30,373 bases of DNA from UHGV virus genome UHGV-0127428; one strand, 5' to 3'. The stretch is from a virus. The notes beneath the pieces were generated by a model that saw only the letters and a list, made by a program, of their open reading frames with translations, was not told the DNA's origin and made no database searches. Positions 5,893 through 27,280 of this stretch are shown here, piece by piece (position 1 is the stretch's first letter; every line of letters starts with the position of its first letter). Made by a program: the position numbers and the translations under genes.

Positions 5893-5925
5893 CTTATTGA
5901 TTTAAATGGTGCCGATAATAGGAGT
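5893..5925. repeat. att core copy 1 (short): cttattgattt-aaa-tggtgccgataataggagt
   Basis: Its 19 nt tggtgccgataataggagt equal the reverse complement of the 3' end of tRNA-Thr (ACTCCTATTATCGGCACCA). Similarity to the tRNA stops after ggagt, where element B sequence begins. Same flank motif as copies at 18458 and 30324. Confidence 0.7.
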
Positions 5926-6067
5926 AAAACACTCGATTAATCTCGTGTTAATGCCATCACCTACGACCATTACTAATTGATTGAATCTTATAGAAAAATC
6001 ATCATTTTCTATGCGTCACAATCAATTTTCACATTACAAACGCTCCGACACTTTAGCCGGAGATTTT

Positions 6068-7345
6068 ATGAGATACAAGCCTAACCAATACTTAATCTGT
6101 GATTCTTACGGTAACTACTATTTAAGGATCACGCTGCCTGTGTATATGCAGCCCTTTTTTGAAGGAAAAAGGACGTTTGTCAGAAGTCTACACACAAGTA
6201 ATCTTCGTGTTGCACGTAGAAAGCGTGATCAGATTGCAGATGAATACCATTGCTTACGGGAGAGTGTTGCCCCTGTAAACAGCACAATAGAAAACACGCT
6301 GGAACTGTTACGCAGTAAGGCTAAATACGCCAAAACAGCTACCAGAGTGCAAGATACAGCGTCTTCGTGTCCGTCATTGCTTAAAATTCTTGAAATCTAC
6401 CTGACAATTAACAGCACGAAGAAGAAGCCAGCCACTTTAGCTAAGGCAAGAAAAGCGGTAGAGATGTTTCTCTCCTACCGTAAAAAGCCTGATATTGCAT
6501 TGCAAGATGTAAGCCGCACCACTGTTACAGGCTGGATTGAACACATGCAAAAAACTCTTTCACAACAATCAATTGCAAATTATATCAGTCCAATGGCCCA
6601 GCTATGGGAATTAGCTTCATCACGTTACCACGATGCGCCAGAAAGGGCGCTCTCCCCCTGGCGAGGGCATAGGCTTGATGTGGCACAAAGTAGAGAGAGC
6701 TACGAGGCATTTTCTAACAAAGAGCTATTGCAGGTGTTGCAAGTATTTTCCGGTAATTCAGCAGAAAACAAAGAAATGACGGCTTTGTGTCTTATCGGTT
6801 TATATACAGGTATGCGGATCAATGAGATAGCAAGTCTCACAATAGACGATGTGAAAGAGATCGAAGGTGTGCTGTGTTTTGAAATCACACAGGGAAAAAC
6901 GAAAGCTGCGGCACGTCTTGTGCCTGTGCATAGCCTTATCACTCCATTGGTGTTATCTCTTCGTGAAAAGCCTCACAATGGCTTTTTGTTCTATCACGCC
7001 AGCATTACAGAACGTGCTGACGGTAAACGCTCTACGTGGCATACACAACGATTTACAAGAGCTAAACGAAAGGCTTTAGGGGAAAAGGGAACAGAAAGGA
7101 AAGTGTTTCATTCTCTGAGACACGGAGTAGCACAGCTTCTTGATCGAAATCAAATTCCAGAGGACCGCATAGCTTTAATGTTGGGCCATCAGCGCGGCAA
7201 TACAGAAACATTCCGCACATATAGCAAGAATGCAGCTTCTCCAGTAGAGCTTAAAAAATATATTGAGCTTTTACGCTACCCTGAAATAGAGAAAGGCTTA
7301 TCAATCAATAAAAAATCAAATTTAAGGCGTAAAACAACGCTATAG
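6068..7345 (+). CDS. tyrosine recombinase/integrase of element B, distinct from the P22-type integrases
   Basis: Catalytic signature present: GMRINEIASL (Arg), HSLRHGVAQL (HxxR), GHQRGNTETFRTYSK (Tyr). Start chosen at the ATG at 6068 with ggag 6 nt upstream; the tool's TTG start at 5981 is less likely. Lies immediately inside the left boundary of element B. Confidence 0.75.
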   Translation: MRYKPNQYLICDSYGNYYLRITLPVYMQPFFEGKRTFVRSLHTSNLRVARRKRDQIADEYHCLRESVAPVNSTIENTLELLRSKAKYAKTATRVQDTASSCPSLLKILEIYLTINSTKKKPATLAKARKAVEMFLSYRKKPDIALQDVSRTTVTGWIEHMQKTLSQQSIANYISPMAQLWELASSRYHDAPERALSPWRGHRLDVAQSRESYEAFSNKELLQVLQVFSGNSAENKEMTALCLIGLYTGMRINEIASLTIDDVKEIEGVLCFEITQGKTKAAARLVPVHSLITPLVLSLREKPHNGFLFYHASITERADGKRSTWHTQRFTRAKRKALGEKGTERKVFHSLRHGVAQLLDRNQIPEDRIALMLGHQRGNTETFRTYSKNAASPVELKKYIELLRYPEIEKGLSINKKSNLRRKTTL

Positions 7346-7352
7346 ACGTAAT

Positions 7353-7386
7353 AAAGAGGCTTCAATATAGACTGATGCCTCTTTTA
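7353..7386. terminator. bidirectional terminator hairpin between convergent genes
   Basis: Stem agaggc / gcctct (7355-7360 and 7377-7382) with a T-run after it; lies between the end of the integrase (+) and the end of the 219-aa gene (-). Confidence 0.45.
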
Positions 7387-7425
7387 TGATTATCTCGTTA
7401 CAGAGCGTTTCATAGGCGTTTAAGG

Positions 7426-8085
7426 CTATTGTTTAAATACTGGCGTTACAACGTCTTGCCCTGGGCTTTTTGTATTTACCTGCATTTTAATCTGTCCCCC
7501 TACAGATTTATTTGGTGCTGTTTTTACCGCAATTGCGCTTGTAGTTGCTTTAGAGACAAGACGGATTTGCTCAAAATCAAGAGTAAACAATAGGCTTTCG
7601 CTTGCTTCTTCTTCATAAGACATGCCAACTAACACAACGTTGTCATAATTTTTTAACTCAGTGACAAGTAGGAAAGGTTGGCGACTGTCCATCAACTGAT
7701 TTAGGTATTCAAGCATAAGCATACGTCGATTGCCGTTAATTCCCGCATTCTTAATCATATCGGGATTGAGCTTCAATACGGTTTCAGAGATACGCCCCTG
7801 TAATGTGAACTTGTTATTCCGTATTTGAACATGATCACTAACTTCTGATCCTGATTCGACGGCATAGCTTGTAACGTCTGCATTTCGGCTAACTTTCGTC
7901 GATTCCACGCTATCAAATGATAATGCCTGGTAGTCATTGTAAGCAGCATTTGCACCACTGCCGAGGTTAGAGGTAATGATCGCAAAGCCGTTACCCCCTT
8001 TAGTTGTTCTACCGTTGCTATCGTTGCTTGTGCTGTTGATTTTCGCCTCAGTCGGGCGACCAATGGTTAACGGACCCATTGCCAT
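7426..8085 (-). CDS. hypothetical protein (219 aa), last gene of the capsid-like operon
   Basis: Good RBS (aagga) upstream of the ATG at 8085; Gly/Asn/Ser-rich N-terminus; no recognisable motif. Confidence 0.5.
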   Translation of the reverse strand: MAMGPLTIGRPTEAKINSTSNDSNGRTTKGGNGFAIITSNLGSGANAAYNDYQALSFDSVESTKVSRNADVTSYAVESGSEVSDHVQIRNNKFTLQGRISETVLKLNPDMIKNAGINGNRRMLMLEYLNQLMDSRQPFLLVTELKNYDNVVLVGMSYEEEASESLLFTLDFEQIRLVSKATTSAIAVKTAPNKSVGGQIKMQVNTKSPGQDVVTPVFKQ

Positions 8086-8132
8086 AATTTGTAATCCTTA
8101 TTTAAGGGGGCTAAACTGCCCCACAGTGATGA

Positions 8133-9974
8133 TTAATAGGTTGACCCGCCTGACATAACACCCAGCGTTAATAGCTTGCTAAACTCAGCGGAGGATGCCT
8201 TTGATTTGAAGTCGATAAATTCGCTCAATCGTCCGGTGTCTGATTCGATAGTTAGCGGCACTTCTGCATTTACTTGTAATTCTGGATTGAAGTTAATAAC
8301 AGGTGCAAAGGTGTAAGAAGGAGCCTTGAAAGCTTGTTGTGCTGCACTCTGTTTCAGATTTGCAATGTTTTGTCCTTCGAGACTGTATTGATTTACAGCC
8401 TGCGCCCCACCTACCGTTTCTTCTGGCATAAACCAGCTTTTAATAGTGTTAACCAGGGAATTGCTGTTATCTGGCTTAGTTGTTCCGGTGCCAGCGCCTT
8501 TATATTGATCAGGAGTGAGATTAGAAAGATTCTGCTTCATTCCTTCGTTAGATAGTGGCGGTGCATCCCCTAAATTCTTTTGAATAGCTGCCGTCTTCTC
8601 GTCGTTTTTCATCAGCCAGTTGATTGCTTTCATTACAGCGTTAACCAATCCGCCGATAGCCTCGCCTAATTTGGTAAACATTGGCAGCATTGCAACCATG
8701 CTCTTTTTAAACTCTTCAATCACTTTCGGATCAAGAGATTTCATAAAGCCATCAACAAAGGCGATCCCTTGTGAGTCAGAAAGCCCACTAAGTGCATTAT
8801 TCAGTTCACGGAATTTAATAACGCTTTCCTGTTGTGCCTGCGTTACCCAGCGCCCTGATTCTCGTTGTTCTCGTGCTGATTGTTCCACTTCTTTAGCGGA
8901 GCGTGTCCAGTATTTAGAGGTGAGCATCAAATCATCAGCCAGATCTTCCAGACGACTACCGATTTGTGCATCTGAATAGCCTTTAGCTACCATTCCCTGA
9001 ACTGCTTTACTAACCAGACCAGCCGGATTATCAGCAAAGTCTTTTAGATCCTTTTTAGTTAAGAATCCTTCATTCATTAAAGTATTGATGCCGCTATCGC
9101 CGCCCTTCCATTCTCCTTTACCTGTTTTTTTATCGACTACATATTCAGCCTCATCATAGCTTTTGGTTGCACGCTCACGCACATCTTTCATCTGATCGAG
9201 ATACTTACGTTTACCTTGATCCCCCATCATTGAATCAACGCCGTTTTTGTAGGCCCATTGCTCAATATTGTTCATCTGGTTAACGTCTACACCGCCCAGC
9301 TTCGCACGGCTATACAATTCTCCCAGCGTTTCAGCACTGGCAAAGCTGTTAGTAACAAATTCAGAGGCTTTGCTCATAGCCATATATGCAGCGCCAGCGC
9401 CTAAGCCACCCAGCATAACAGCCGCAGCACCGCCGCCAATACTCCCGCTACCCTTAACAGGTGCATAGGCTTTAGCGTGAGCGTTACGATTGCCATTAAT
9501 CTTACGTTGTTGCTGTTGTAGGCGTTTCATTTGGCTATTCATACGTGCCAGACTAATAGCGCCTCTTTCATATTGGAGGGCAATTTCTCTAGCCTGTGCA
9601 ATAGCTTTATATTGTTCCGCTACAGAAAGACGGTGCATTGCACTAATGCTTGATCCAACGTCTAAAAGCTTTAATTCTGCCTTCTCTTTGCGTGCTGCCA
9701 GGGCTTTTTGTTCTCTTGCAACTACACGTTGAGCGGCTAATTGTGCTTTAGCATTAGCTTTATCAGCCTGTGCTTGCTTTTTAGCAATATCGTCTACGTC
9801 TTTTTTTGCTTTAGCGGTTGATTGTTTATGTGTCTTAACACGCAATTCTATATCTTTCACAGCCGCCATTTGTTTACGAAGTTTTTCTACTTCTGCTTTT
9901 GCTTTCTCTAATGATGGTCGGTTAACTTCGAAGGTGACAACGTTCGAGAGGCGTGCCACGTTTAGCTCTAACAT
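8133..9974 (-). CDS. tape-measure-like protein (613 aa; coiled-coil N-terminus plus Gly-rich hydrophobic segment)
   Basis: N-terminal Lys/Ala/Gln/Glu-rich predicted coiled coil (KLRKQMAAVKDIELRVK...AKAQLAAQRVVAREQ) followed by GSGSIGGGAAAVMLGGLGAGAAYMA. This architecture is typical of phage tape-measure or internal virion proteins; assignment is by composition only. Confidence 0.4.
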   Translation of the reverse strand: MLELNVARLSNVVTFEVNRPSLEKAKAEVEKLRKQMAAVKDIELRVKTHKQSTAKAKKDVDDIAKKQAQADKANAKAQLAAQRVVAREQKALAARKEKAELKLLDVGSSISAMHRLSVAEQYKAIAQAREIALQYERGAISLARMNSQMKRLQQQQRKINGNRNAHAKAYAPVKGSGSIGGGAAAVMLGGLGAGAAYMAMSKASEFVTNSFASAETLGELYSRAKLGGVDVNQMNNIEQWAYKNGVDSMMGDQGKRKYLDQMKDVRERATKSYDEAEYVVDKKTGKGEWKGGDSGINTLMNEGFLTKKDLKDFADNPAGLVSKAVQGMVAKGYSDAQIGSRLEDLADDLMLTSKYWTRSAKEVEQSAREQRESGRWVTQAQQESVIKFRELNNALSGLSDSQGIAFVDGFMKSLDPKVIEEFKKSMVAMLPMFTKLGEAIGGLVNAVMKAINWLMKNDEKTAAIQKNLGDAPPLSNEGMKQNLSNLTPDQYKGAGTGTTKPDNSNSLVNTIKSWFMPEETVGGAQAVNQYSLEGQNIANLKQSAAQQAFKAPSYTFAPVINFNPELQVNAEVPLTIESDTGRLSEFIDFKSKASSAEFSKLLTLGVMSGGSTY

Positions 9975-10008
9975 GTTAATTGTTTCCCTGTATTATGATT
10001 GTTGTTTG

Positions 10009-10206
10009 TTATTGTTTTTTAGAACAATAATATTGGATTGCTTCGAAAGTGCTGCACCCAGTCTGAAAGACACGCTGGCGCACATTATTTGCATCAATTT
10101 CTAAAAGGCGGCAAAGCGCCGATGTGTTTATAACTGATTCCTCGCTAATAGCTGCCAGTTCTTTTACAGATTTAAGAATTAATGCCTGTGAATTTTCTGT
10201 ATTCAT
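10009..10206 (-). CDS. small hypothetical protein (65 aa from the ATG at 10206)
   Basis: Internal ATG with gagag RBS; the longer 91-aa frame starts in a hydrophobic, unlikely leader. Confidence 0.3.
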   Translation of the reverse strand: MNTENSQALILKSVKELAAISEESVINTSALCRLLEIDANNVRQRVFQTGCSTFEAIQYYCSKKQ

Positions 10207-10360
10207 TGGTTTTCTCTCACATATATATATTTTTATTTGGGTTTGTAGACAGTAGAAAAACAAAAAGGGCAAGAGACAGCGCATATTTTGCTTATATGAT
10301 TATCCCTTACCCTTATTGCCCCGATTATTTCCAGACGTAGGGGAACGTCTTTAACACTTT

Positions 10361-11389
10361 TTACGCTACTGTGATCTGCACAGAGAAGCCAACACCGTGG
10401 TTAACCACAAGCGAGCTATTCTCGGTCACTACGTGCACTGCGTCGCCGCGATTCGATTCGAAAGCATAGCTGTAATACTCTTTAGCGCCTTGAGACAGCA
10501 GATCGAAGGAACTGGAAGGCGCGCCATAGATAGCTTGGTAAACACCTCCACCCTTAGCGAATTTAGGCACGGCTACAGCGTCAGCGGTCATATGTGCCAG
10601 CAGCAGCGGATCAGTCACTTTGATCAGATCAATGTTAGTTCCTGGAATGGTGAAAGTAGTTACGCCAGGCAGCAGAGAACGCACATTAAACACCACGTTT
10701 GCATCGTCTACAGGGCTTGCATATTGGAACGCATTGACCATGCCAACGCTGTAACGAATAGCGTTGAATGCCGCAGGTTTACAGAACACAACAACACGCT
10801 CAATGGTTGCAGCCTGGCTTTGTGCCTTAGCAATCATATCCGTATGCATCTGATCAAATTGCTTGAATACGGTCATTGTGTTGGTGCTGGATGCGTCAAC
10901 GGTTGCAGTCATTGGAGACACACCGAACAGAGTGCTGTAATCGATCAGAACATCGTCAGTTTTCGGGGTATGTGTCTTGCCAGAGAACAGAGAAGCCGCG
11001 AGGATGCTTTCTTTAGTGCGCTGGAATGCAACATTGTGTTTAGCGATATATTCCGCATACAGATCCGGCAGTGTTTCTTCAATAGAGCTTCCGGCTTTGC
11101 GTTTGCCTTGCACGTCCTGCGGTTTGATCAGGTCTTCACGCAGGAAGTAAGGGATTTCAATCAGCCATTCTTCCCCGTTCTCACGCTTAGTAACGTTATG
11201 CTCAGAGCTAAAACGGCTTGTAGGATGGTTGAACAGAGATTCATTGCTCTCGATAAGCTGGGAAACAGCCACTTTGTGACTTTCTACAGGCACAGGATCA
11301 GTAAAATCCAGAGTAGACAGTAGGTAATTGCGTGAGTCGTTTAATTCGAACAGTGGAGCAAGATCAACCACTTCATTTCCGATAATCAT
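10361..11389 (-). CDS. candidate major capsid protein (lambda gpE-like family)
   Basis: 342 aa, similar in size to lambda E (about 341 aa). The C-terminal ...GFSVQITVA resembles the recalled lambda E C-terminus ...FVSVQLA. It is directly preceded by a small decoration-sized gene, as D precedes E in lambda. Strong RBS. Family assignment is tentative. Confidence 0.45.
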   Translation of the reverse strand: MIIGNEVVDLAPLFELNDSRNYLLSTLDFTDPVPVESHKVAVSQLIESNESLFNHPTSRFSSEHNVTKRENGEEWLIEIPYFLREDLIKPQDVQGKRKAGSSIEETLPDLYAEYIAKHNVAFQRTKESILAASLFSGKTHTPKTDDVLIDYSTLFGVSPMTATVDASSTNTMTVFKQFDQMHTDMIAKAQSQAATIERVVVFCKPAAFNAIRYSVGMVNAFQYASPVDDANVVFNVRSLLPGVTTFTIPGTNIDLIKVTDPLLLAHMTADAVAVPKFAKGGGVYQAIYGAPSSSFDLLSQGAKEYYSYAFESNRGDAVHVVTENSSLVVNHGVGFSVQITVA

Positions 11390-11405
11390 TATTATTTATT
11401 CCTTC

Positions 11406-11780
11406 TTAAGATGTGAAAACAGAGTGGAAGCCTTCAAGCTGGAAGCCTTTAGCAGCGAGAGCTGCAATAGCAGCTTCTTTTACAGCGCCTTCGGCATTCA
11501 GGGCATCAGCTTTGATGCAAACGAGTCCGGCATTAGCACGAAGCACGTTAACTGTTTTATTTGAATCAGCAGTTACGAAGTCAGACACAACGACAAGAAC
11601 ATCAGCGCCGCTAACATATTTAGCGCCGGATGAATCAATGAGGTCGCCGCACGTTACATCTTGTGCAAGTGCTGCAAATTTTTTGCTTTCTACAGCCGCG
11701 TAAGGGTCGGTTGCATAGCTCACTACGTCAGTGATGCTTTTACGATGTGGGAAAACATCGCTTAATTTTAAAATAGCCAT
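11406..11780 (-). CDS. candidate head decoration-like protein (124 aa)
   Basis: Size and position immediately upstream of the capsid-like gene; Ala/Val/Gly-rich beta-type composition; aagga RBS. No direct motif evidence. Confidence 0.35.
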   Translation of the reverse strand: MAILKLSDVFPHRKSITDVVSYATDPYAAVESKKFAALAQDVTCGDLIDSSGAKYVSGADVLVVVSDFVTADSNKTVNVLRANAGLVCIKADALNAEGAVKEAAIAALAAKGFQLEGFHSVFTS

Positions 11781-11989
11781 TATTTTTCCTTAGATTGTTT
11801 GATTTGTTGAGCTTTAGCATTAATCAAATCTTGGTGAGATGGTTTATTGCTTTCAGCCTTATAAAGACGTTCACACTGTTTCTTTAATTCTGTGGGAGTG
11901 ATGCCAAGCGCGTAGGCTGTAGCATTCAACACATCTTCAGTTAGTGTTAACTTTTCATTGCCATATTTCAGGATAATTTCTTGTTTCAT
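11780..11989 (-). CDS. small hypothetical protein (69 aa), first gene of the capsid-like operon
   Basis: ORF whose stop overlaps the start of the next gene; lysine-rich and helical in composition. Confidence 0.35.
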   Translation of the reverse strand: MKQEIILKYGNEKLTLTEDVLNATAYALGITPTELKKQCERLYKAESNKPSHQDLINAKAQQIKQSKEK

Positions 11990-12983
11990 TTATATAACGA
12001 TTCCATTATGTTGGAATTTAATAAATCCCCCAGGCTATAAGAGGTTCAATCTGACAATAGCGAGGGGGATTTATTAACGTGTCGGGCAATACACAGCGAT
12101 AAGTAAAACCTTGAGGAGGTTTTAAACGTATCTCTAAGAATGCTTATTAAACATGCTTAAAGATAGGTTTAAAGGGTGAACAGATATTCCTGAAAACATG
12201 CTCTTAGGAAAACATGCGGAATCAATCAGGAATATCTATTCGGGGCGCGGTGGCTAACCGCTATCTTTCATGGTGTGGATGCACCAGTCAGATTTTAAGG
12301 AATCACTATTCCAATCTACTCACAGATTAAATTTTTAATAATGATTAACTACACCAACAGTAATCTACCGTTTCAGAAAATCGTTTTTACAACCAAAGCT
12401 TATAGATCCGCATTCTATAAAACCCGTTTTGCTATCAATATTTCCAAAGTTTATTGCACCATTCTTAGCTAAACTCTCTCTACTTGCGGCTAACGCTATG
12501 CAGATGATAGTTTTTTGACAACAACTTAATAGATTATTCTGTTACTAACTTCTGTCATTAAATAAGAGTTTAATGATGTTAGTAAATAGTTATAAAATAT
12601 AACTATCAGTGTAAGGCTCTTTAATGTTTTCGGACAAAATAAGGAGCTTTAGGATAAGCATAGATGAAAAATAAGAGCGGGAAGGGCAAGGAGATAACAC
12701 CTACCCGCTTTTATCAAAAATTAAGCACAATGCCTAACAACATTTATCAACACAACGTAGAAACAATCAACAATCAAAGAGGGAGTTATGATTATTCTAA
12801 AACTTCTTGAGGGGATGGAAGGTAATATTTGTTAGAGGTTAATGCCATTCAACCTTTGAGGCTATCACCTTCCATATGCAGGGATTTATGACAGGAAAAG
12901 GATTAACACCAGTCAAAACCTTTTTATCTACCCCTAATATTATTATATAATGAAATCGTTATAAATGCAAATGATTTTTATTA

Positions 12984-13292
12984 TCATTTAGAGAAAATAG
13001 CACTTTTTGCTAAATCATCTACTAATTGCTGAATCTCTTCACTTGCAGCCTTTAACGTGCTGGCGGTGTCTGTGATGGTTTGAGTGCACATCTTGGCATT
13101 GTCCTCAATTAGCTCTAAATCTCTCACCAGAGAGATAAAATCGTCAAGGCTTACATTCACCTTCATTAAGCTAATAACGCATTGAGAGAGCGTGTAATCG
13201 CATAAATCTGAATAGGCTTGATTTATTCTTGTTTGTAGTGAGATAGTCAGATCTAAAAGTTGTTCCATTGCATTGCTAATATCTTCTTCCAT
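12984..13292 (-). CDS. hypothetical acidic protein (102 aa)
   Basis: aaggag RBS; start overlaps the stop of the upstream gene (taATG); no recognisable family. Confidence 0.45.
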   Translation of the reverse strand: MEEDISNAMEQLLDLTISLQTRINQAYSDLCDYTLSQCVISLMKVNVSLDDFISLVRDLELIEDNAKMCTQTITDTASTLKAASEEIQQLVDDLAKSAIFSK

Positions 13293-13495
13293 TATGCGGC
13301 TTCTCCTTGTAATGCATCATTAATCATATTCAATACGATGTTAAAAGGTGTCTTGAGCGTCAGCACTTCATCACGGTAACGCTCTAATGCTTCGTAGTCT
13401 TCTGTTTCTTTTGCCAGTCGGATTAACTCAGCATAGTTTTTTGCATCAGACAGGATCATCTGAAATAATTGTGTTTCTTGAATATAGCCAATCAT
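13292..13495 (-). CDS. hypothetical protein (67 aa from the internal ATG)
   Basis: The internal start MIGYIQETQ... has a strong aaagga RBS; the longer 81-aa frame begins in the intergenic region. Confidence 0.4.
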   Translation of the reverse strand: MIGYIQETQLFQMILSDAKNYAELIRLAKETEDYEALERYRDEVLTLKTPFNIVLNMINDALQGEAA

Positions 13496-13552
13496 TATTT
13501 TTCCTTTTTTGAATATTTTCATTGGGCGCTTATACATACGCCCATCATTTTA

Positions 13553-13933
13553 TTAGTTAGAACGTTTGTTAGAAGCTAATGTATCTTCTAAATGAGCCAT
13601 CAGATCGACTTCCGATGCACCACCTACACAATTATTGAAAGCGTTAAATCCCAAAAAATGATGATAGGAGCTAAACCCTAAAAGCTGCCAACGTTTCAGA
13701 GTGCCATCAGAAATGATAGTTTGTTTTCTTGTTCTTGGGCGAAAGTAAACGCCTGGCATTGACTGGATTATTTCTAATTCTTCATCGCTTAATTCAGGGG
13801 ATTCTGTTTCAAGAATAAAGATTATCTCTTCCCCTGGATCGTTATTGGTGTGTGTCGGTGGACGTTGTCTTTTTGAATTGAAATTACTGTTTTTTTCAAT
13901 ACGTTTTAAGTTATTACGTTTCTTTTTTCCCAT
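13553..13933 (-). CDS. hypothetical protein (126 aa) with a basic N-terminus
   Basis: Strong RBS (aagaggga); N-terminal MGKKKRNNLKRIEK...; no recognisable family. Confidence 0.45.
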   Translation of the reverse strand: MGKKKRNNLKRIEKNSNFNSKRQRPPTHTNNDPGEEIIFILETESPELSDEELEIIQSMPGVYFRPRTRKQTIISDGTLKRWQLLGFSSYHHFLGFNAFNNCVGGASEVDLMAHLEDTLASNKRSN

Positions 13934-14116
13934 TTTCCCTCTTTTTATGTGGATTATAAAAACTTAATGTCATTGTTACGATGAATATCGCCATAAATGC
14001 ATTTGCCATATGTATTGCCCGATCTGTTGTTATTGATTGTTTGTGATAAACAATTCAAAATCTTTGTTTAATTTCAAAAGACGAAATGTAGTGCTGTTAT
14101 AAGCCATTTATTCTCC

Positions 14117-14686
14117 TTAGAATGGTATTGAATCGTATATTTCACTTTTTTCTCTTAGAGATATTATCAGATCGTGAAAAGCCTGTTTCTCAAGATAGAT
14201 ATTCTTTGAATCTAATGCTCGTTTTACAAAATCTTCTGTTTCTTCGTGCGGTGGTTTCTTCTTATCAAGGGAAAGAAGCCAAGTAAAAATTTCGGGCCGC
14301 TCAGGGAACTCTGATTCCTGTATTTCTTCTTCAACGATGATTTCGGAAACATTCAATATTCCATTAGATTCGTCTTCTTTCTCAGAAGGATCAGGTAGTG
14401 ATGATTCTCCTTTTGGAATATCAAGCACTCGATAAAGGTTAGAGCTTCCTGGTCGTGCATCTTTTATAATTAATCCCATTTCGAGCAATTTCTTAACCCT
14501 TTCTTCTGCTGCTCTTGGTGTTATGCCAAAAACATCGCCTATCTTAGCGTAAGAGGGAAATGCACGATCAAACCCTCTCAAATAGCAGTAAAGGTTTTTA
14601 GCACTATCTGTAAATTTATGCCCGTTTACTTGGCTTATTTTTAGAATCCACATAGGAACTTTTACAAATTGTTCTTCATTAATCAT
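14117..14686 (-). CDS. replication initiator-like protein (winged-HTH Rep family)
   Basis: Start set at the ATG at 14686 with aaggag 8 nt upstream. N-terminal region (LYCYLRGF...AFPSYAKIGDVFGITPRAAEERVKKLLEMGLI) is typical of plasmid/phage wHTH replication initiators; acidic C-terminus. An iteron array lies 1.3 kb upstream. Confidence 0.5.
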   Translation of the reverse strand: MINEEQFVKVPMWILKISQVNGHKFTDSAKNLYCYLRGFDRAFPSYAKIGDVFGITPRAAEERVKKLLEMGLIIKDARPGSSNLYRVLDIPKGESSLPDPSEKEDESNGILNVSEIIVEEEIQESEFPERPEIFTWLLSLDKKKPPHEETEDFVKRALDSKNIYLEKQAFHDLIISLREKSEIYDSIPF

Positions 14687-14739
14687 TAAAAATCTCCTTG
14701 ATGTAATCACGCTCTACGGCGCTACTATGGTGATAAAAA

Positions 14740-14910
14740 TCACTTGCTTTTGTTTGAGAGTGTTTCAGCCTCTCTTTTCAACATATCAAGAATGTAATCT
14801 GTAACAGTGATACGTTTACTTCTGGCTTCTTTAAACAACACCTGAAATACTTCATCAGGAATATGAAAGCAAGTGCGTGGTTGTCTTTTCTTTTCTGTAG
14901 TTTCGCTCAT
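14740..14910 (-). CDS. small ribbon-helix-helix (CopG/Arc-like) regulator candidate (56 aa)
   Basis: MSETTEKKRQPRTCFHIPDEVFQVLFKEARSKRITVTDYILDMLKREAE fits an RHH pattern (beta strand then two helices); strong RBS; immediately upstream of rep. Confidence 0.4.
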   Translation of the reverse strand: MSETTEKKRQPRTCFHIPDEVFQVLFKEARSKRITVTDYILDMLKREAETLSNKSK

Positions 14911-14931
14911 AGTTTTCTCCTTCTCCTGTTA

Positions 14932-15108
14932 TTATTCTTTCTCTGCCTTACGCAGTTCATCAATAATTTTTAGTGCATCGTCAAAGCATTTTTCACGCTC
15001 TGGATAACCACAGCGTCGCGCTGTGTTCCTGTTCATCCTTACTTTAAAACGATTAATCTCACCACGTTTCCAGGCTTCAACTACATCCTGTGGAGTAAAA
15101 TATTTCAT
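14932..15108 (-). CDS. small hypothetical protein (58 aa)
   Basis: ATG with a perfect aggagg SD; first gene of the rep operon. Confidence 0.35.
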   Translation of the reverse strand: MKYFTPQDVVEAWKRGEINRFKVRMNRNTARRCGYPEREKCFDDALKIIDELRKAEKE

Positions 15109-15960
15109 TAATTAGCCTCCTTATTCTATTTGGTTAAAAGAAAAAACACCTTGCAAGCCTTGTTGGGCTTCAAAGTGCGGTGCATTGGTTTAATTACTTA
15201 GAGGATAAGAATGTTTTCTGTCCCTAATATTACTTTACCACGACTAAAAGCTTTTGTCAACCCCTAGCCATAAAAATATTGATCATTTTCAGTGTGTTAT
15301 AATTTTTCTTAGCAATTCGTGCTCTTACGAGTGCTCCTATTCTTCCTTATTCTCTAAAACGCTCTAAAACGCCCTCTGACGAGGTTTTGATAAATACAAT
15401 ACATTCCCTTATGTAGAGGCTGTTTAGCTCGCCTACGGCTTGATTTAAGCGGTAGAATCTTATTTAACCTTCAACTACTAAAACCATTCTTTCTTTTTTG
15501 TTTGTTGTTGGTTGTTGTCTGTGTCTATGTGCTAACATCGCTAACGCGTAGCACACAAGGTTATTGCACTCGTCAGAGTATTGCACAATAGATTTTCTCT
15601 TAAATAGATTGATGATCGTTAGATGGTAGTTAGTTAATTATCGTTATGCGCACAGCGCAAGACTATTTAGCCTTACGCAAGCCGTAGGCTATTTGCACAT
15701 AGTAGATTACATATTCGTTGTGAGCGGCATTAGCGAACATAGATCTACTAACTAACATCAACAAACAAAAACTATGTGTTATGACAAGCAGTCTAACGAT
15801 TAACACTCTAACTTGTGCAAGGTTCTGGCGAATGCCAATAGATTAAGGGATAGTCAAGGACTCCCCTAACGGGTATCTCTATAATTATTCTTTAAAGATA
15901 AAAGAATTTATAAAAGATAATTTAATTGTAGTTTGATAGTTGATCTAATAGGTAACAAAA

Positions 15961-16096
15961 TTCTGTAGGGGTGGCTAACAGTTTTCTGTGGGGGTGTATA
16001 ACATAATTCTGTTAGGGTTGGGGTAACAGTTTTCTGTTAGGGTGCATATTTCTTTAAAAGTTAAGGATAACAGAATTCTGTGGGGGTAGTTCACAG
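15961..16096. repeat. iteron-like direct repeats (five copies of TTCTGTnGGGG...), candidate replication origin
   Basis: Copies start at 15961, 15984, 16007, 16032 and 16076, mostly 23-25 bp apart, consensus ttctgt(a/g/t)ggg(g/t)t; set in AT-rich noncoding DNA upstream of the rep operon. Confidence 0.6.
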
Positions 16097-16480
16097 TGAC
16101 CTACCGTTACATCCATTTATCACATAACATCTGTGCAATGATCTTCTAAAAGTGTTTCTTGCTACCAAAATTAAACATCTAAAACAGGCTTAAATTCAAT
16201 GTAATTGATGATTAATCCCTGTGTAATTCCTACGTAAAAATCCAATGAAAAGTAGCTTAAAAAGTGCAATGTTAGCTTTCTTCACTTTTACATCACTTTC
16301 GCAAAGCCGCATTACACACGGCTTACAGAGCACTATCAGAAATTGTTGATTAAAAATCAATCTATTATTTGTCGAACAAGTTTCCTTTAATGCAACAAAA
16401 AATTATTTTTTCAAAATAAACACACTATTTAATAGCTTGCTAATTTTACCAAAATGTAACTACATGATTCTCATGCAAGA

Positions 16481-16586
16481 CGTGTAGTGATAAAGCAGGC
16501 TAAATCACCACACTAAAAACCTTCGAATTTCGTAGTGAAAAAAGTCCTTTACACACCTAATCAACACGATCAATAATCACTACACG
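16481..16586. promoter_or_regulatory. candidate res-like recombinase binding region (11-bp inverted repeat)
   Basis: cgtgtagtgat (16481-16491) and its reverse complement atcactacacg (16576-16586), plus repeated atcaacac / atcaccaca motifs, immediately upstream of the serine recombinase gene. Confidence 0.25.
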
Positions 16587-16612
16587 CAAATCAACACAGA
16601 AGGAAAATGAAA

Positions 16613-17164
16613 ATGGCTAATATTGGATACATTAGGGTATCGACTGTCCAACAAAACACAGACCGTCAATTAGCTGGAGTAACTCTTGATAAAGTCTTTG
16701 AAGATAAAGCGTCAGGCAAGAATACCCAGCGCCCACAGTTTGAGGCAATGATGAACTATGTGCGTGAAGGTGATGTTTTGCATGTTCACAGCATTGATCG
16801 ACTTTGCCGTAATACAGCCGACCTACTGGCAACGGTTGAGCAATTAACAGAGCGCGGCGTGTCTGTGCATTTCCATAAAGAAGACTTTAAGACAGGGAAG
16901 AACTCTCCCGCAGGGAATATGATGCTCACAGTGCTTGCAGCAGTGGCACAAATGGAACGTGAAATGATGCTTGAGCGGCAACGTGAGGGGATCGCCGCAG
17001 CTAAGGCCGCTGGACGTATAGCAAAACGTGGTAATGGAAAAGCAATTGATCGAGCGGGAATTGTTGCCGCTCTCGCGAATGGTGGATCAATTCGGAGCGT
17101 AGCAAAAGATTTCAGTGTCAGCACACAGACGGTGCAACGTATCAAGAAAGAGCAGGAAGCGTAA
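16613..17164 (+). CDS. serine recombinase (resolvase/invertase family)
   Basis: N-terminal MANIGYIRVSTVQQ with the catalytic Ser, plus a C-terminal HTH-like tail (SIRSVAKDFSVSTQTVQRI). The start could instead be the ATG at 16607. Confidence 0.8.
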   Translation: MANIGYIRVSTVQQNTDRQLAGVTLDKVFEDKASGKNTQRPQFEAMMNYVREGDVLHVHSIDRLCRNTADLLATVEQLTERGVSVHFHKEDFKTGKNSPAGNMMLTVLAAVAQMEREMMLERQREGIAAAKAAGRIAKRGNGKAIDRAGIVAALANGGSIRSVAKDFSVSTQTVQRIKKEQEA

Positions 17165-17489
17165 TGCCTCCTGATATTTGAGAATTGTCGCTGCGTGGAC
17201 CTGACGCCGCTGATCTTCGCGTTAAACATTGATCACGTTTGCGCCGATTTCAGATAAAAAGGCAGCTATTAAGCAATACGTAACTTTTACAATTAGTGAA
17301 ATTATCTAAAACACAAGTTATATAGATGAGAAAATGAAATATTATCTTGAACAAATCAAACAAAACAACACATCATCTTGTTGACACCATGCAACGTGAA
17401 TAGTAAGCTATTATATGTGAAAATTTGCACATTGCATGCAATAAAAAATAAATGATACCTTATTGTTGTTAAATCAATAGGGGGTATCT

Positions 17490-17648
17490 ATGCGCTTTAT
17501 CTTATCCATTTTAAAAACCTGCAGAACCACAATTACTTTAGCTGTAATTGTTACCATCATATACCTCATCTATTTTACCCCTCGAGATAAAATCGATTCA
17601 CTAGCGATCATCGTTCATGCAATGGCTACATTAACTAAAAAACTTTAA
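17490..17648 (+). CDS. small hydrophobic peptide (52 aa)
   Basis: Strong SD (agggggt) before the ATG; MRFILSILKTCRTTITLAVIVTIIYLIYF... is a predicted single transmembrane helix; followed by a hairpin near 17663-17700. Confidence 0.35.
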   Translation: MRFILSILKTCRTTITLAVIVTIIYLIYFTPRDKIDSLAIIVHAMATLTKKL

Positions 17649-17714
17649 TAATTTCACTATCAGGCGCATAAACACATCTTTGATCGCTGGATGTGTTATG
17701 CGCCTACTGGTGAT

Positions 17715-17867
17715 TCAATCCTTAAGCCATTTCAACTCACTAAGGAGTTTTCTTTCTTCGTTCTCTCTCTGTTTACGCTCTAGCCAGGCTTTTCCTTCTG
17801 GCGTAGACAGGAACTTACGAGCGTGAATCTTGCGGTTATTACGTTTTATAGCTGCAATGTTTTTCAT
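17715..17867 (-). CDS. small basic protein (50 aa)
   Basis: ATG with gaggc SD; MKNIAAIKRNNRKIHARKFL...; convergent with the hydrophobic peptide gene. Confidence 0.3.
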   Translation of the reverse strand: MKNIAAIKRNNRKIHARKFLSTPEGKAWLERKQRENEERKLLSELKWLKD

Positions 17868-18457
17868 CGTGTTGCCTCTGTATTCATATGAAAATTAACA
17901 AGTTACATACTACACAGGGAGACTACGCATAAAACACAATACAAGTAAAGATACATTTTCAAGACAATAGGAGCCATAAAGCGCCTTTGATGGTTATACC
18001 AAAAAATAAGCGCCGTAGGCGTATCCACTAAAAAGGGCTTTTTCACAAAAGCTATGAAGTCTTAGCAGTTCTTCTCTTATCAGGCACCCGTTGTACTCCG
18101 GTGGACGAAACCGTGCTAGAGCTTGATTCTTTCCCGATCAAGTTAGGTTTTGAAGAGGTGGGCTTTGATCCACTATTGCACTTAAAACTCTTCCCATCAT
18201 TTAGCCTGTTTATCCTCTGCAACGTCTCACGACGTGTAGCATCATTGGACACCGCGCCAGGTGTGGAACATCTTGCTAAGAGTTTTGGTAGAAGGTTTAG
18301 AGACGGTGGCACGTCTTCCAGCTTCAAAGGAACTTGTTACGAGGTTGAGCCTGGGAACTACTCGCCCATACGTGTTACACTACCAAAGCCCATAACAACG
18401 TATAGGCGTTTGTAAGTGATAACAGAAGATACAATTTCTTAGAGAAGTTAAGCTAAG

Positions 18458-18519
18458 TTATTGATTTTCTTAATGGTGCCGATAATAGGAGTCGAACCTA
18501 CGACCTTCGCATTACGAAT
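18458..18519 (-). repeat. att core copy 2 carrying a 46-nt 3' fragment of tRNA-Thr (18474-18519)
   Basis: The reverse complement of 18474-18519 equals the tRNA-Thr(CGU) sequence from the anticodon loop to the CCA end (ATTCGTAATGCGAAGGTCGTAGGTTCGACTCCTATTATCGGCACCA). Similarity to the tRNA stops at 18520, so this is a displaced partial copy, not a gene. Flank ttattgatttt matches the other two copies. Confidence 0.8.
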
Positions 18520-19352: not shown

Positions 19353-19632
19353 ATATGGACATAACTTCCCACCCACTATTTGTACACTTATAATTCAGAT
19401 TCGCTGAAAGACGTTCAGAATGTACTTTGACAGATTTAATCATGTTTCACTTATCACCAACAAAATCATCACCAAGAAAACTATTGCACACATTAACTAT
19501 ACCTCGTCGCATTGCAGCATGGTATGCAGATGACATCATTAAATGATGTTACAATGCTGAGATATAATGCTTCATGTTATGATGATAGCATTTTGAACAT
19601 TCATAAACACTACTAATATTAGAGGCTACGAT

Positions 19633-20937
19633 ATGAGAAATGATATTACTGCCACGTCTGAAAATATAGTGGATTTTTTTAAACAGACATCATTAAATGA
19701 CTACATAAAAAAAGCATGGCTATACAATGAAAATTGCTTCGTTGTTGATTTTGAATATAAGAGCGTGAAATTTGCTCTGGATTTCTCATATGATCAAACA
19801 ATCGATAAACAAAATTTAAATGTTGATTTCGTACTAAGAAGCAATCCGTTTAACTTCACAATTGCGAAGGGGAAAAATAAAGAACGTATATCATCAGAGG
19901 CAAATCTTACATCTGCATTGGCTTCTTCCCTTCTAAAAATAACAAGTGTAATTAACATCATTAACTCTTGTCGCCCTATTGATGTTAGTGTAGTTATACC
20001 TGTACATAACCGCGAAAAACTTATTCTTGAATGTATTAACTCACTTAATAACCAAACAATTAACAAGGATCGTTTTGAGGTTGTTTTCATCGATGATTGC
20101 TCAAGTGACAAAAGCATTGCCGCTATAGAATATAATATATCACCAGATATTAATTACAGAATTATCCGCCGCGAAGTTGGTTCTGGCAACGCTTCAACTC
20201 CACGCAATGAGGGTATAAAATCAGCAAAAGGTCGTTATATTTTTTTCATGGATTCTGATGATTATATTGACGAAACTCTTCTTGAGAGAGGGATGCAAAT
20301 TGCTGATAAAAATAACAGTGATGTTGTTTACTTCAAAATTGCATCAGATGGAAGTCGTGAGGTGCCGATCCGTCCATACAAAGTAAAAATTGTAGATAAA
20401 GCCGATATAACCAAGCACCATCTATTGCGGTCATTAACTATATTCAAATTCTTCAGAAGAAACATGCTTAAAGAGCATAACATACTCTTTAATCCTGCTA
20501 TCACTGTAGCTGAAGATAAAATATTCATGGTTCACGTTTTGTCTGTGGCCAAGAATATATCCATTCTTGCCGACAAAGATTATTATCACATAACACTTCA
20601 TGATGGAAGTCATTTATCACGACAAAAATTCCCTCTTGAGGATAGGCATTTCATTCTCAACTCGATCATTAACACTATTTACTTTTGCGAAAAAACGGAT
20701 GAAGAAAAGGCCAAGCTTTACAATGCGTGGCTGGTGATATGCCTTGAAATGATGGAAAAGGTATGTGGTAAAGCAGGTGGCAACGAGCAAAAGAAACGGA
20801 TGTTCTTTAACATGCTTTCAACAGCTTTCAATATCCGCTCAGATTTAGTAAATCAGGATATGATTTATCCCCCTCAGCGTAAGTTCATCAAACCTTTTTT
20901 ACAAAATAATTATGAAGGTTTTATAGCTGAAATTTAA
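19633..20937 (+). CDS. family-2 glycosyltransferase (GT2) with an N-terminal extension of unknown function
   Basis: GT2 core VSVVIPVHNREKLILECINSLNNQ...FEVVFIDDCSSD...YIFFMDSDDYID with a DxD motif, preceded by about 115 aa of unknown sequence; no obvious TM segment; very AT-rich codon usage. Confidence 0.75.
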   Translation: MRNDITATSENIVDFFKQTSLNDYIKKAWLYNENCFVVDFEYKSVKFALDFSYDQTIDKQNLNVDFVLRSNPFNFTIAKGKNKERISSEANLTSALASSLLKITSVINIINSCRPIDVSVVIPVHNREKLILECINSLNNQTINKDRFEVVFIDDCSSDKSIAAIEYNISPDINYRIIRREVGSGNASTPRNEGIKSAKGRYIFFMDSDDYIDETLLERGMQIADKNNSDVVYFKIASDGSREVPIRPYKVKIVDKADITKHHLLRSLTIFKFFRRNMLKEHNILFNPAITVAEDKIFMVHVLSVAKNISILADKDYYHITLHDGSHLSRQKFPLEDRHFILNSIINTIYFCEKTDEEKAKLYNAWLVICLEMMEKVCGKAGGNEQKKRMFFNMLSTAFNIRSDLVNQDMIYPPQRKFIKPFLQNNYEGFIAEI

Positions 20938-20943
20938 AACATT

Positions 20944-20962
20944 GCCCAGCATGTAGCTGGGC
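20944..20962. terminator. hairpin between convergent GT2 and tailspike genes
   Basis: gcccagc atgta gctgggc perfect 7-bp stem; lacks a strong T-run. Confidence 0.3.
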
Positions 20963-20983
20963 ATACATTAAAAGTATCACATG

Positions 20984-23377: not shown

Positions 23378-23460
23378 AGTTACGAATTTGGCAATCTGTC
23401 CGTTATATACCGGGTATCGTTGAATTCGTTAAACAGCAAGAGCAGTTATTCTGCGGAGCA

Positions 23461-24784: not shown

Positions 24785-24795
24785 CGGTATCGCCT

Positions 24796-25110: not shown

Positions 25111-25126
25111 CAAAGAGGAATTTACC

Positions 25127-26513: not shown

Positions 26514-26514
26514 G

Positions 26515-27270: not shown

Positions 27271-27280
27271 GGACTAACAA

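What the first reader, a model, noticed from the sequence alone, without database searches (positions are those of the whole stretch)
12984..13933. Three ORFans co-transcribed downstream of the Rep gene
The 126-, 67- and 102-aa proteins are translationally coupled (overlapping stop/start, strong SDs), AT-rich, and match no family I recognise. Accessory slots like this in mobile elements often hold anti-defence, helper-interference or regulatory functions.
Basis: inference. Interest (0 to 1): 0.5.

Follow-up and report, generated by a model that had tools for sequence, protein, structure and literature searches.

The report
Conserved gene trio of a phage satellite
Three small genes of unknown function are real and turn out to be a fixed core part of a 12.5-kb mobile element of E. 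coli and relatives, one I found no description of and which appears to parasitise large virulent phAPEC8-like phages, so they are probably part of how the element exploits its helper phage rather than optional cargo.

Summary
The three ORFs exist on the minus strand: orfA 13933-13553 (126 aa), orfB 13495-13292 (67 aa) and orfC 13292-12984 (102 aa). They lie downstream of an HTH_36 Rep gene in 36.7% GC DNA. Only orfB and orfC overlap (TAATG). A 57-nt spacer with a hairpin separates orfA from orfB.

All three are genuine genes. The ordered trio is kept in E. coli, Kluyvera, Citrobacter and Enterobacter elements. Pooled dN/dS is 0.15 for orfA, 0.15 for orfB and 0.61 for orfC.

No Pfam, NCBIfam, PADLOC, PDB-sequence or phage-genome match explains them. 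A usable orfA model (pLDDT 75) has no fold match.

They are not an accessory slot. The Rep, capsid, tape-measure and integrase modules are swapped between relatives, but the trio stays.

The element lies between att repeats (about 5926-18471). It carries homologues of the phAPEC8 capsid, tape-measure and post-tape-measure proteins. One Phapecoctavirus carries a chimeric protein with the element's Rep DNA-binding domain (99% identical) fused to a GIY-YIG-type domain, as in ICP1 Odn versus PLE.

Best reading (about 0.4): a core helper-takeover module. orfB and orfC would form an acidic, fast-evolving protein-binding pair, and orfA a basic-tailed partner. The main rival is a late-gene switch. Function is inferred, not shown.

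The parts
13553..13933 (-). orfA, 126 aa: basic N-terminal tail, then a conserved alpha/beta core with the motif SPxL[ST]xxE...VY[FY]KPRxRK...WQxLGF
   Evidence: ORF and SD site. Family alignment with R67 invariant. 28 relatives among 1.84e9 representatives, from E. coli, Klebsiella and Serratia. AF2 model pLDDT 75.5, with the core at 82-94. No fold match. Pooled dN/dS 0.15.
13523..13544 (-). Hairpin UGGGCG-N10-CGCCCA in the 57-nt orfA-orfB spacer
   Evidence: Read from the sequence; kept in W, L002 and L005. Absent where orfA and orfB overlap. Function unknown.
13292..13495 (-). orfB, 67 aa, acidic (pI 4.3), probably helical; F11 and P50 invariant across genera
   Evidence: Pooled dN/dS 0.15. 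Two allele types in E. coli co-vary with the N-terminus of orfC.
12984..13292 (-). orfC, 102 aa, very acidic (pI 4.05, net charge about -11); start overlaps the orfB stop (TAATG)
   Evidence: 136 clusters at 90% identity, almost all E. coli. Pooled dN/dS 0.61, the highest in the element. Variable residues lie at 1-18 and 55-83.
14117..14686 (-). Rep-like initiator (189 aa from the ATG with an AAGGAG SD site; the mechanical ORF is 197 aa from a GTG at 14710)
   Evidence: HTH_36 at E 7e-4 and phrog_270 'replication initiation protein' at 1.5e-8. Start choice. N-terminal 113 aa 99% identical to a Phapecoctavirus protein.
14740..15108 (-). Two small upstream genes of the same strand (58 aa and 56 aa) that open the early gene block
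   Evidence: Conserved in relatives. Promoter-like TTGACA-17-TAAAGT at 15260..15232.
15953..16097 (.). Five iterons of about 23 nt (TAACAnnnTTCTGTnGGGGT), the probable origin of replication
   Evidence: the repeat finder family D1, spacings 23, 23, 25 and 44.
11990..12983 (-). 994-nt non-coding leader between orfC and the structural genes
   Evidence: No annotated gene, no Rfam match, no phage match. A 654-1006-nt gap is present in all relatives measured. Promoter-like TTTGCA-18-TATAAT at 12971..12942.
12178..12241 (-). Leader hairpin: 16-bp stem with conserved loop motifs GAUUCC and CCUAAGAG
   Evidence: Four stem sequence types with compensatory changes at the same distance from the p69 gene.
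12018..12077 (-). Stem-loop (21-nt arms) just upstream of the first structural gene; in relatives it is a classical intrinsic terminator
   Evidence: Conserved in position but not in sequence in L002, L005, L007, L009, L012 and L015.
7426..11989 (-). Structural gene block: p69, p124 (in the position of a decoration protein), major capsid protein (10361-11389), p65, tape-measure-like protein of 613 aa (8133-9974), and a Dit-like protein of 219 aa (7426-8085)
   Evidence: PF03864 at 3e-18. phrog_16051 and phrog_817. PF21821 Dit_like on relatives. Homology to phAPEC8 gp152, gp162 and gp163 at 25%, 24% and 51% identity.
6068..7345 (+). Tyrosine integrase (RefSeq start)
5905..5925 (.). Left att repeat (21 nt, matching the 3' part of tRNA-Thr thrW)
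   Evidence: Match to the tRNA-Thr locus of L001.
18472..18519 (.). Right att repeat (fragment of the tRNA-Thr 3' end). A third copy lies at 30334-30373.

Best explanation
orfA, orfB and orfC are a fixed core module of a 12.5-kb integrative, satellite-like element inserted at thrW. The element appears to exploit phAPEC8-like (Stephanstirmvirinae) virulent myoviruses.

The trio sits at the end of the early (replication) gene block. I propose that it acts on factors outside the element, meaning helper-phage or host proteins, to take over or interfere with the helper.

Proposed roles:
- orfB and orfC are made together by translational coupling. I infer that they form an acidic, helical, protein-binding pair.
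- orfC's surface changes quickly, as expected for a protein locked in an arms race with a phage target.
- orfA is a strongly conserved small protein with a basic N-terminal tail and a fold with no detectable relative. It is the likely nucleic-acid- or machinery-binding partner.

Shown: the genes are real, they are core, they have no detectable relative in any phage genome searched, and they are independent of the other modules. The link between the element and phAPEC8-like phages is also shown.

Inferred: complex formation, the target, and the effect on the helper.
For: - Real, constrained genes. The ORFs stay open across genera. Pooled dN/dS is 0.15 (orfA), 0.15 (orfB) and 0.61 (orfC), against 0.06-0.21 for the structural genes and integrase.
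- Core and syntenic in every relative, while Rep, head, tail and integrase modules are exchanged.
- No co-variation with other modules. Nearly identical orfA, orfB and orfC occur with two capsid types that tblastn cannot connect (L019 and L030 against the window). They also occur with Rep alleles of 52-99% identity. This points to a partner outside the element.
- orfB and orfC are acidic (pI 4.0-4.7, net charge down to -17), overlap at stop/start, and orfB type tracks the orfC N-terminus in 16 of 16 loci.
- orfC has 136 clusters at 90% identity within Escherichia. Its variation is concentrated in two segments with dN/dS 0.83, against 0.27 elsewhere.
- No homologue in 50,697 phage genomes, in P4, or in 47 kb of phAPEC8 and Mt1B1_P17.
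- Satellite context. att repeats flank the element and it has iterons plus a Rep gene. Its MCP, TMP and Dit-like proteins are homologous to phAPEC8 gp152, gp162 and gp163. A Phapecoctavirus protein fuses the element's Rep DNA-binding domain (99% identity) to a MUG113/GIY-YIG-type domain. This mirrors ICP1 Odn against PLE (PMC8263062).
Against: - There is no direct evidence of expression, of an OrfB-OrfC complex, or of any target.
- Acidic composition and raised dN/dS also fit relaxed constraint.
- The post-hoc split of orfC into variable and conserved segments inflates the contrast. Pairwise dN/dS among recombining alleles is crude.
- The co-variation of orfB with the orfC N-terminus may be simple linkage, because the two are adjacent.
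- The position immediately upstream of a structured leader and terminator fits a regulator equally well.
- Satellite behaviour of the element (induction, packaging, transfer) is itself inferred.
Confidence: 0.4

Rival explanations
1. Late-gene switch. One or more of the three proteins, most plausibly basic-tailed orfA, activates or antiterminates transcription across the 0.65-1 kb leader and its terminator. This would turn on the capsid and tail gene block, much as lambda Q acts on pR'-tR'.
For: - The trio holds the last genes of the early block, directly upstream of a promoter-like site, a long non-coding leader and a terminator. The terminator is conserved in position in seven variants despite different sequences.
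- The leader holds a hairpin whose stem changes by compensatory substitutions while its loop motifs stay fixed.
- orfB, orfC and the leader travel together at 88-98% identity among E. coli variants that differ in orfA and in the head module.
- orfA has a conserved basic N-terminus and a KPRxRK segment.
- A universal need to control late genes would explain core status.
Against: - No match to any regulator family: no Q, N, Ogr/Delta, Mor/C or RinA-type hits in Pfam.
- orfB and orfC are strongly acidic, which is unusual for nucleic-acid binders.
- orfA alleles only 66% identical occur with the same hairpin type and a 92.5% identical leader. The orfC mid-region variants also do not track hairpin type.
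- The terminator may simply insulate a helper-activated late promoter.
Confidence: 0.25
2. Morphogenetic helpers. orfB and/or orfC are small scaffolding or size-determining proteins for the element's own capsid protein, comparable to SaPI CpmB or the phi29 scaffold.
For: - The element encodes a capsid protein only 25% identical to the helper's, and nothing in it is recognisable as a scaffold, protease or portal.
- orfB (67-78 aa) and orfC (about 100 aa) are small and acidic and look helical, as many scaffolds are (the comparison with known scaffolds rests on my own knowledge).
Against: - Near-identical orfB and orfC (97-100% and 87-91%) occur with two capsid and decoration types that share no detectable similarity. 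A scaffold should co-evolve with its capsid protein.
- The trio is separated from the structural genes by about 1 kb and a terminator.
- The small p69 gene directly upstream of the capsid genes does change with the capsid type and is a better scaffold candidate.
Confidence: 0.12
3. Packaging specificity. The trio redirects the helper's terminase to the element's DNA, acting like a small terminase or an Rpp-type adaptor, and the packaging site lies in the adjacent non-coding region.
For: - The element has no recognisable terminase gene, yet must be packaged if it is a satellite.
- The trio sits where packaging genes often sit, between the replication and head genes, next to a long conserved non-coding stretch.
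- orfA has a basic tail.
Against: - No terminase or Rpp-like match by sequence or fold.
- The leader shows no similarity to any phage genome.
- No evidence about how phAPEC8-like phages package DNA was obtained here.
Confidence: 0.1
4. Accessory cargo: anti-defence proteins such as DNA mimics that protect the element or its helper from host immunity.
For: - Small size, strong negative charge and fast evolution of orfC resemble known DNA-mimic inhibitors (the resemblance rests on my own knowledge).
- AT-rich DNA.
Against: - The trio is invariant in presence and order across at least four genera, while true cargo positions vary.
- orfA and orfB are under firm purifying selection.
- No match in Pfam, PHROG (annotated families) or PADLOC.
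Confidence: 0.08

Closest known systems
PLE of Vibrio cholerae (satellite of the virulent myovirus ICP1)
   Same: - A small integrative island with a Rep-plus-iteron replicon.
- It appears tied to a large virulent myovirus.
- The phage side carries a chimeric protein that joins the island's Rep DNA-binding domain to a GIY-YIG-superfamily domain, as ICP1 Odn does (PMC8263062).
- Most early genes are family-specific small ORFans.
   Different: - This element has a tyrosine integrase.
- It encodes its own homologues of the helper capsid, tape-measure and post-tape-measure proteins.
- No PLE protein sequence was available to compare, so there is no evidence of common descent.
- Parasitism has not been demonstrated.
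SaPIbov5-type cos SaPIs with Ccm (PMC8569155)
   Same: A satellite that carries a diverged homologue of its helper's major capsid protein.
   Different: - Different host phylum, and the helper is a temperate siphovirus.
- SaPIs carry no tape-measure or Dit-like genes.
- Nothing comparable to the trio was detected: Pfam gave no hits.
Satellite P4 early and late small proteins (Eps, Orf88, Orf106, Orf151, Delta, Psu, Sid)
   Same: Small helper-directed proteins encoded next to the replication gene of an enterobacterial satellite. This is the closest analogy for what the trio may do.
   Different: Profile HMMs of orfA, orfB and orfC find nothing among all P4 reading frames (best E 1.6). The helper type is also different (P2-like temperate phages).
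Capsid-forming PICIs (cf-PICIs)
   Same: Enterobacterial islands that encode their own capsid protein.
   Different: By my own knowledge, cf-PICIs carry a full head module (HK97-type capsid, protease, portal, connectors, small terminase) and no tail genes. This element has only a gpE-type capsid protein and a protein in the position of a decoration protein (not tested), plus tail-related genes.
Lambda Q with pR'-tR' (late antitermination)
   Same: Position only: the last early genes sit directly upstream of a promoter-like site, a leader and a terminator that precede the structural genes.
   Different: No sequence or fold similarity to Q or N, and the proteins are much smaller.

Membership tests
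P4-like satellite proteins (Eps, Delta/Ogr, Psu, Sid and others) | Detectable sequence similarity to the P4 proteins or their Pfam families | tested here: not met
   hmmsearch with the orfA, orfB and orfC profiles against all P4 reading frames of at least 40 aa gave a best E of 1.6. No Ogr_Delta or Psu hits in Pfam.
Capsid-forming PICI | A complete head module: HK97-type capsid, protease, portal, head-tail connectors and small terminase | tested here: not met
   Every ORF of the element is accounted for, and none matches a portal, protease, connector or terminase.
PLE-like satellite of a virulent phage (works like, not descent) | Structural or regulatory links to a virulent helper, and a helper-encoded counter-measure aimed at the satellite replicon | tested here: met
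   MCP, TMP and Dit-like homology to phAPEC8. Mt1B1_P17 carries a 328-aa protein that joins the Rep HTH (99% identity) to a MUG113 domain at 21.2 bits, just under the 22.3-bit cut-off. Precedent: PMC8263062.
PLE-like satellite of a virulent phage (works like, not descent) | Excision, replication and packaging triggered by helper infection, with loss of helper progeny | not testable with these tools
   Needs infection experiments.
Type II toxin-antitoxin pair (orfB/orfC) | A known toxin or antitoxin domain, usually an acidic antitoxin with a basic toxin | tested here: not met
   No Pfam, NCBIfam or PADLOC hit. Both proteins are acidic.
Small terminase / Rpp-type packaging adaptor | Sequence or fold similarity to terminase small subunits or Rpp | tested here: not met
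   No Pfam or PHROG terminase hit. The orfA model has no PDB or viral fold match. orfB and orfC folds were not modelled.
Lambda N/Q-type antiterminator | Similarity to the N or Q families, and a cognate cis site conserved with the protein | tested here: inconclusive
   No family hit. A leader hairpin and a terminator exist, but orfA alleles do not track hairpin type.
Capsid scaffolding / size-determination protein | Co-evolution with the cognate capsid protein, and a location in the head gene block | tested here: not met
   The same orfB and orfC occur with two unrelated capsid types. They are separated from the head genes by about 1 kb and a terminator.
DNA-mimic / anti-defence proteins (Ocr, ArdA, Arn-like) | Small, highly acidic protein; a match to a known family; a position in variable cargo | tested here: inconclusive
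   The acidity criterion is met by orfC (pI 4.05). There is no family match, and the position is core rather than variable.

The most novel reading that the evidence does not exclude
The trio is the helper-takeover core of a previously undescribed family of satellites of Enterobacterales. These would parasitise virulent Stephanstirmvirinae (phAPEC8-like) phages, a group used in phage therapy. In this reading orfA founds a new fold. OrfB-OrfC is a rapidly evolving inhibitor pair aimed at a phage protein, for example the Odn-like nuclease or a late-gene or assembly factor. Together with the covarying leader RNA, they would decide whether the helper or the satellite is produced.
Probability: 0.3. 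Interest if true: 0.8.

Novelty: new variant of a known kind. Interest (0 to 1): 0.6.

Why it matters
If the reading is right, about 5% of complete E. coli genomes (285 of 5426) carry a PLE-like parasite of phAPEC8-type virulent phages, as do Kluyvera, Citrobacter and Enterobacter.

This would be a second, experimentally tractable model of a satellite of a lytic phage, in the best-studied bacterium. It would come with an evident phage counter-weapon (a Rep-domain/GIY-YIG chimera) and a set of invariant small proteins, the trio, that are the obvious candidates for the takeover mechanism.

It would also bear on host range and resistance in phage therapy with Stephanstirmvirinae.

Taken alone, the trio gives three new small-protein families. 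One has a confident core model and no known fold.

Tried and rejected
Searches that found nothing useful:
- Pfam, NCBIfam, PADLOC and PHROG scans of the three proteins, with Pfam and PHROG also run on their family members. These gave only noise or families of unknown function.
- PDB sequence search: nothing.
- tblastn of orfA and orfC against 50,697 phage genomes, and profile search against P4 and 47 kb of Phapecoctavirus DNA: nothing.
- Rfam on the element and blastn of the leader against phages: nothing.
- Seven literature searches aimed at the element, by helper genus, satellite terms, thrW and protein accessions: no description of it.

Modelling:
- AF2 of orfA with close homologues only was unusable (pLDDT 49).
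orfB and orfC were therefore not modelled.

Blocked or failed requests:
- Alignment-based locus searches failed for lack of a conserved stretch. A hand-made degenerate DNA pattern was used instead.

Ideas considered and rejected:
- orfA type co-varying with capsid type looked plausible from the first ten loci. L019 and L030 refuted it.
- A late-promoter motif shared with phAPEC8 was looked for and not found.
- The legacy names 'transporter' and 'ABC transporter ATPase' have no support.
Full report
**What is at the coordinates**

The three ORFs lie on the minus strand:
- orfA, 13933-13553, 126 aa
- orfB, 13495-13292, 67 aa
- orfC, 13292-12984, 102 aa

RefSeq annotates the same three CDS in an E. 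coli chromosome that is 100% identical over this stretch.

The mechanical ORF list gives 81 aa for orfB. That upstream extension is broken in relatives, whereas the MI... start behind an AAGGA Shine-Dalgarno (SD) site is conserved.

SD sites are good for all three (GAGGG, AAGGA, AAGGAG). orfB and orfC overlap by one base (TAATG). orfA and orfB do not overlap: a 57-nt spacer between them holds a small GC-rich hairpin at 13544-13523. In relatives from other genera all three junctions overlap.

GC is 36.7%.

The upstream gene is a Rep-type initiator. It matches HTH_36 and PHROG 'replication initiation' families. Its real start is probably the ATG at 14686. Five iterons of about 23 nt lie at 15953-16097.

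Co-transcription with Rep could not be tested. No terminator-like site separates the two, but a perfect TATAAT lies just upstream of orfA.

**Are they genes?**

Yes. Homologues of all three were found, almost all in Escherichia. There are 50 clusters for orfA, 28 for orfB and 136 for orfC at 90% identity.

The ORFs remain open in variants whose synonymous sites are saturated.

Pooled Nei-Gojobori dN/dS among E. coli alleles:

| Gene | dN/dS |
|---|---|
| orfA | 0.15 |
| orfB | 0.15 |
| orfC | 0.61 |
| Capsid (MCP) | 0.15 |
| Tape measure (TMP) | 0.19 |
| Dit-like | 0.06 |
| Integrase | 0.18 |

orfC variation is concentrated in residues 1-18 and 55-83. Those segments give 0.83 against 0.27 for the rest. 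This split was chosen after seeing the variability, so it overstates the contrast.

**What the proteins look like**

No significant match was found for any of the three in Pfam, NCBIfam, PADLOC or PDB sequences. Scanning diverse family members gave only scattered coiled-coil noise.

The old database names 'transporter' (orfC) and 'ABC transporter ATPase' (orfB) have no support.

orfA:
- A full HMMER profile search over 1.84 billion representatives found only 28 relatives, including proteins from Klebsiella and Serratia.
- They share the motif SPxL[ST]xxE...VY[FY]KPRxRK...WQxLGF, and one arginine is invariant.
- Ten of 24 family members match phrog_5488, a family of unknown function.
- AlphaFold2 with close homologues failed (pLDDT 49). 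With the diverse alignment it gave pLDDT 75.5, with residues 31-100 at 82-94.
- The model is a strand, helix, strand, then three helices, behind a low-confidence basic tail.

orfB and orfC:
- Both are acidic: pI 4.2-5.6 for orfB and 4.05-4.5 for orfC, with net charge down to -17.
- From their sequences they look helical.
- orfB type and the first 17 residues of orfC change together in all 16 loci examined. This fits a physical interaction, but it may be plain linkage because the two are adjacent.

**The surroundings change the picture**

The trio belongs to a 12.5-kb element bounded by direct repeats of the 3' end of tRNA-Thr (thrW) at 5905-5925 and 18472-18519. A third copy lies at the window end. 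DNA on both sides is P22-like prophage (tailspike, RecT, Ead/Ea22, integrases).

Gene order in the element:
1. Integrase
2. Dit-like protein
3. Tape-measure-like protein of 613 aa
4. p65
5. gpE-type capsid protein
6. p124
7. p69
8. About 1 kb with no gene
9. orfC, orfB, orfA
10. Rep
11. Two small genes
12. Iterons
13. A serine recombinase

The 1.1-kb block is present in 285 of 5426 complete E. coli genomes.

Related loci were fetched in three ways: by exact-protein look-up, by a degenerate DNA pattern against one genome per species, and from IMG/VR. They come from E. coli, Kluyvera, Citrobacter, Enterobacter and Salmonella arizonae, where only a fragment was found. The trio is always in the same place and order.

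Everything around the trio is exchangeable:
- Rep may be an HTH_36 protein of 52-99% identity or a 495-aa DEAD-type protein.
- There are at least two head modules that tblastn cannot connect.
- The tape measure may be only 26% identical.
- The integrase may be different, or absent in two contigs of 13.8 and 13.6 kb. Those contigs close into circles, because the tape-measure ORF is continuous across their ends.

Nearly identical trios occur with either head type (L019, L030). The trio is therefore a core module, not an accessory slot. It is also not matched to the element's own capsid, replication or tail genes.

**Which phage?**

The capsid protein's nearest phage relatives are Phapecoctavirus and other Stephanstirmvirinae, at 25% identity over the full length.

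Against the phAPEC8 structural region:
- The Dit-like protein is 51% identical to gp163 (E 2e-64).
- The tape measure is 24% identical to gp162 (E 3e-21).
- The orders 'small protein, capsid' and 'small protein, tape measure, gp163-like' mirror the phage.

Independently, phage Mt1B1_P17 of the same genus shares 355 bp at 99.2% identity with the 5' part of the Rep gene. The phage gene encodes a 328-aa protein. It has that HTH_36 domain, a second HTH_36, and a C-terminal MUG113 domain of the GIY-YIG superfamily. The MUG113 hit is E 4e-4 at 21.2 bits, just under the 22.3-bit cut-off.

This is the architecture of ICP1 Odn. Odn copies the DNA-binding domain of PLE RepA, joins it to a T5orf172/GIY-YIG nuclease, and cuts the satellite's origin (PMC8263062).

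Together these results make it likely that the element is a parasite of phAPEC8-like virulent phages. Seven literature searches aimed at the element found no description of it. The library does not hold all journals.

**What the trio most likely does**

The following points favour a module that acts on helper or host factors:
- It is core.
- It has no detectable homologue in any phage genome searched, in P4, or in the phAPEC8 and Mt1B1_P17 stretches examined.
- It does not co-vary with the element's other modules.
- It contains a translationally coupled acidic pair, one member of which evolves fastest in the whole element.

I put this at about 0.4.

The main rival (about 0.25) is a late-gene switch:
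- The trio holds the last early genes.
- It is followed by a promoter-like site (12971-12942).
- Next comes a 0.65-1 kb leader present in all relatives.
- Next comes a hairpin (12241-12178) whose 16-17-bp stem exists in four sequence versions with compensatory changes, while the loop motifs GAUUCC and CCUAAGAG stay fixed.
- Last comes a stem-loop (12077-12018). In relatives this is a textbook intrinsic terminator at the same distance from the first structural gene.

Against the switch: orfA alleles do not track hairpin type, and acidic proteins are poor candidates for nucleic-acid binding.

Other readings are less likely:
- A scaffold role is weakened because there is no co-variation with capsid type, and p69 is a better-placed candidate.
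- A packaging role has no positive evidence.
- Cargo or anti-defence conflicts with core conservation.

**Limits**

- There are no expression data and no interaction data.
- There is no model for orfB or orfC.
- dN/dS comes from pairwise counts on recombining alleles.
- The helper assignment rests on homology and on one chimeric phage gene.
- Contexts of the Klebsiella and Serratia orfA relatives could not be retrieved.

Noticed in passing
L017 2328-3314 (phage Mt1B1_P17, MT496970.1 20722-21708); window 14373-14727: A Phapecoctavirus carries a 328-aa protein whose first 113 residues are 99% identical to the element's Rep DNA-binding domain. It continues with a second HTH_36 and a MUG113 (GIY-YIG-type) domain. 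This is the same design as ICP1 Odn, the nuclease that cuts the PLE origin. A related phage, BI-EHEC, has a 94.7% match.
   Followed up: partly
window 7426-11389; L018 (phAPEC8) 19572-29126: The element's capsid, tape-measure and Dit-like proteins are homologues of phAPEC8 gp152, gp162 and gp163 (25%, 24% and 51% identity), in mirrored local order. I found no description in the literature of a satellite that carries both head and tail homologues of a virulent myovirus.
   Followed up: partly
window 12178-12241 (minus strand): A leader hairpin has a 16-17-bp stem in four different sequence versions across relatives, changed in a compensatory way. The loop motifs GAUUCC and CCUAAGAG are fixed, and an Enterobacter relative has the same loop motif. 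UAAGAG is complementary to CUCUUA in the loop of the downstream stem-loop (12043-12038). This looks like a structured regulatory RNA or a specificity determinant. It has no Rfam match.
   Followed up: partly
window 12018-12077; L002, L005, L007, L009, L012, L015 at the same relative position: An intrinsic terminator lies 30-60 nt upstream of the first structural gene. It is conserved in position in seven variants but has different stem sequences.
   Followed up: partly
window 15953-16097: Five iterons of about 23 nt (TAACAnnnTTCTGTnGGGGT), the probable origin. This would be the expected target of the phage's chimeric protein.
   Followed up: no
window 5905-5925, 18472-18519, 30334-30373: There are three copies of the thrW att core. 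The element therefore sits in a tandem array, between P22-like prophage DNA on both sides, with integrases at 4729-5892 and 29163-30323, a tailspike at 20984-23377, and RecT, Ead/Ea22 and a glycosyltransferase.
   Followed up: partly
L007 and L008 (whole contigs, 13,786 and 13,624 bp): These are integrase-less relatives that close into circles: the tape-measure ORF is continuous across the contig ends. They have a 495-aa replication protein of the size of the DEAD-helicase-type Rep of L009 (itself not scanned) and an Imm_superinfect gene. They may be plasmid-like or episomal forms of the family.
   Followed up: partly
L002, L019, L027, L030 against window 10361-11989: At least two head modules (p69, decoration-like protein, capsid) with no detectable similarity are exchanged between otherwise near-identical elements. 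The window element is a mosaic of L002-like and L010/L015-like parts.
   Followed up: partly
L015 (JAEWTL010000083.1, 'Bacillota bacterium' MAG): A contig binned as Bacillota carries an element 95-100% identical in protein sequence to the E. coli one. This is most likely a binning error or contamination.
   Followed up: no
window 16607-17164: A serine recombinase/resolvase gene lies on the opposite strand inside the element, between the iterons and the right att. It was 99-100% identical in the four IMG/VR relatives where it was found, and it got no hit in the other ten loci compared.
   Followed up: no
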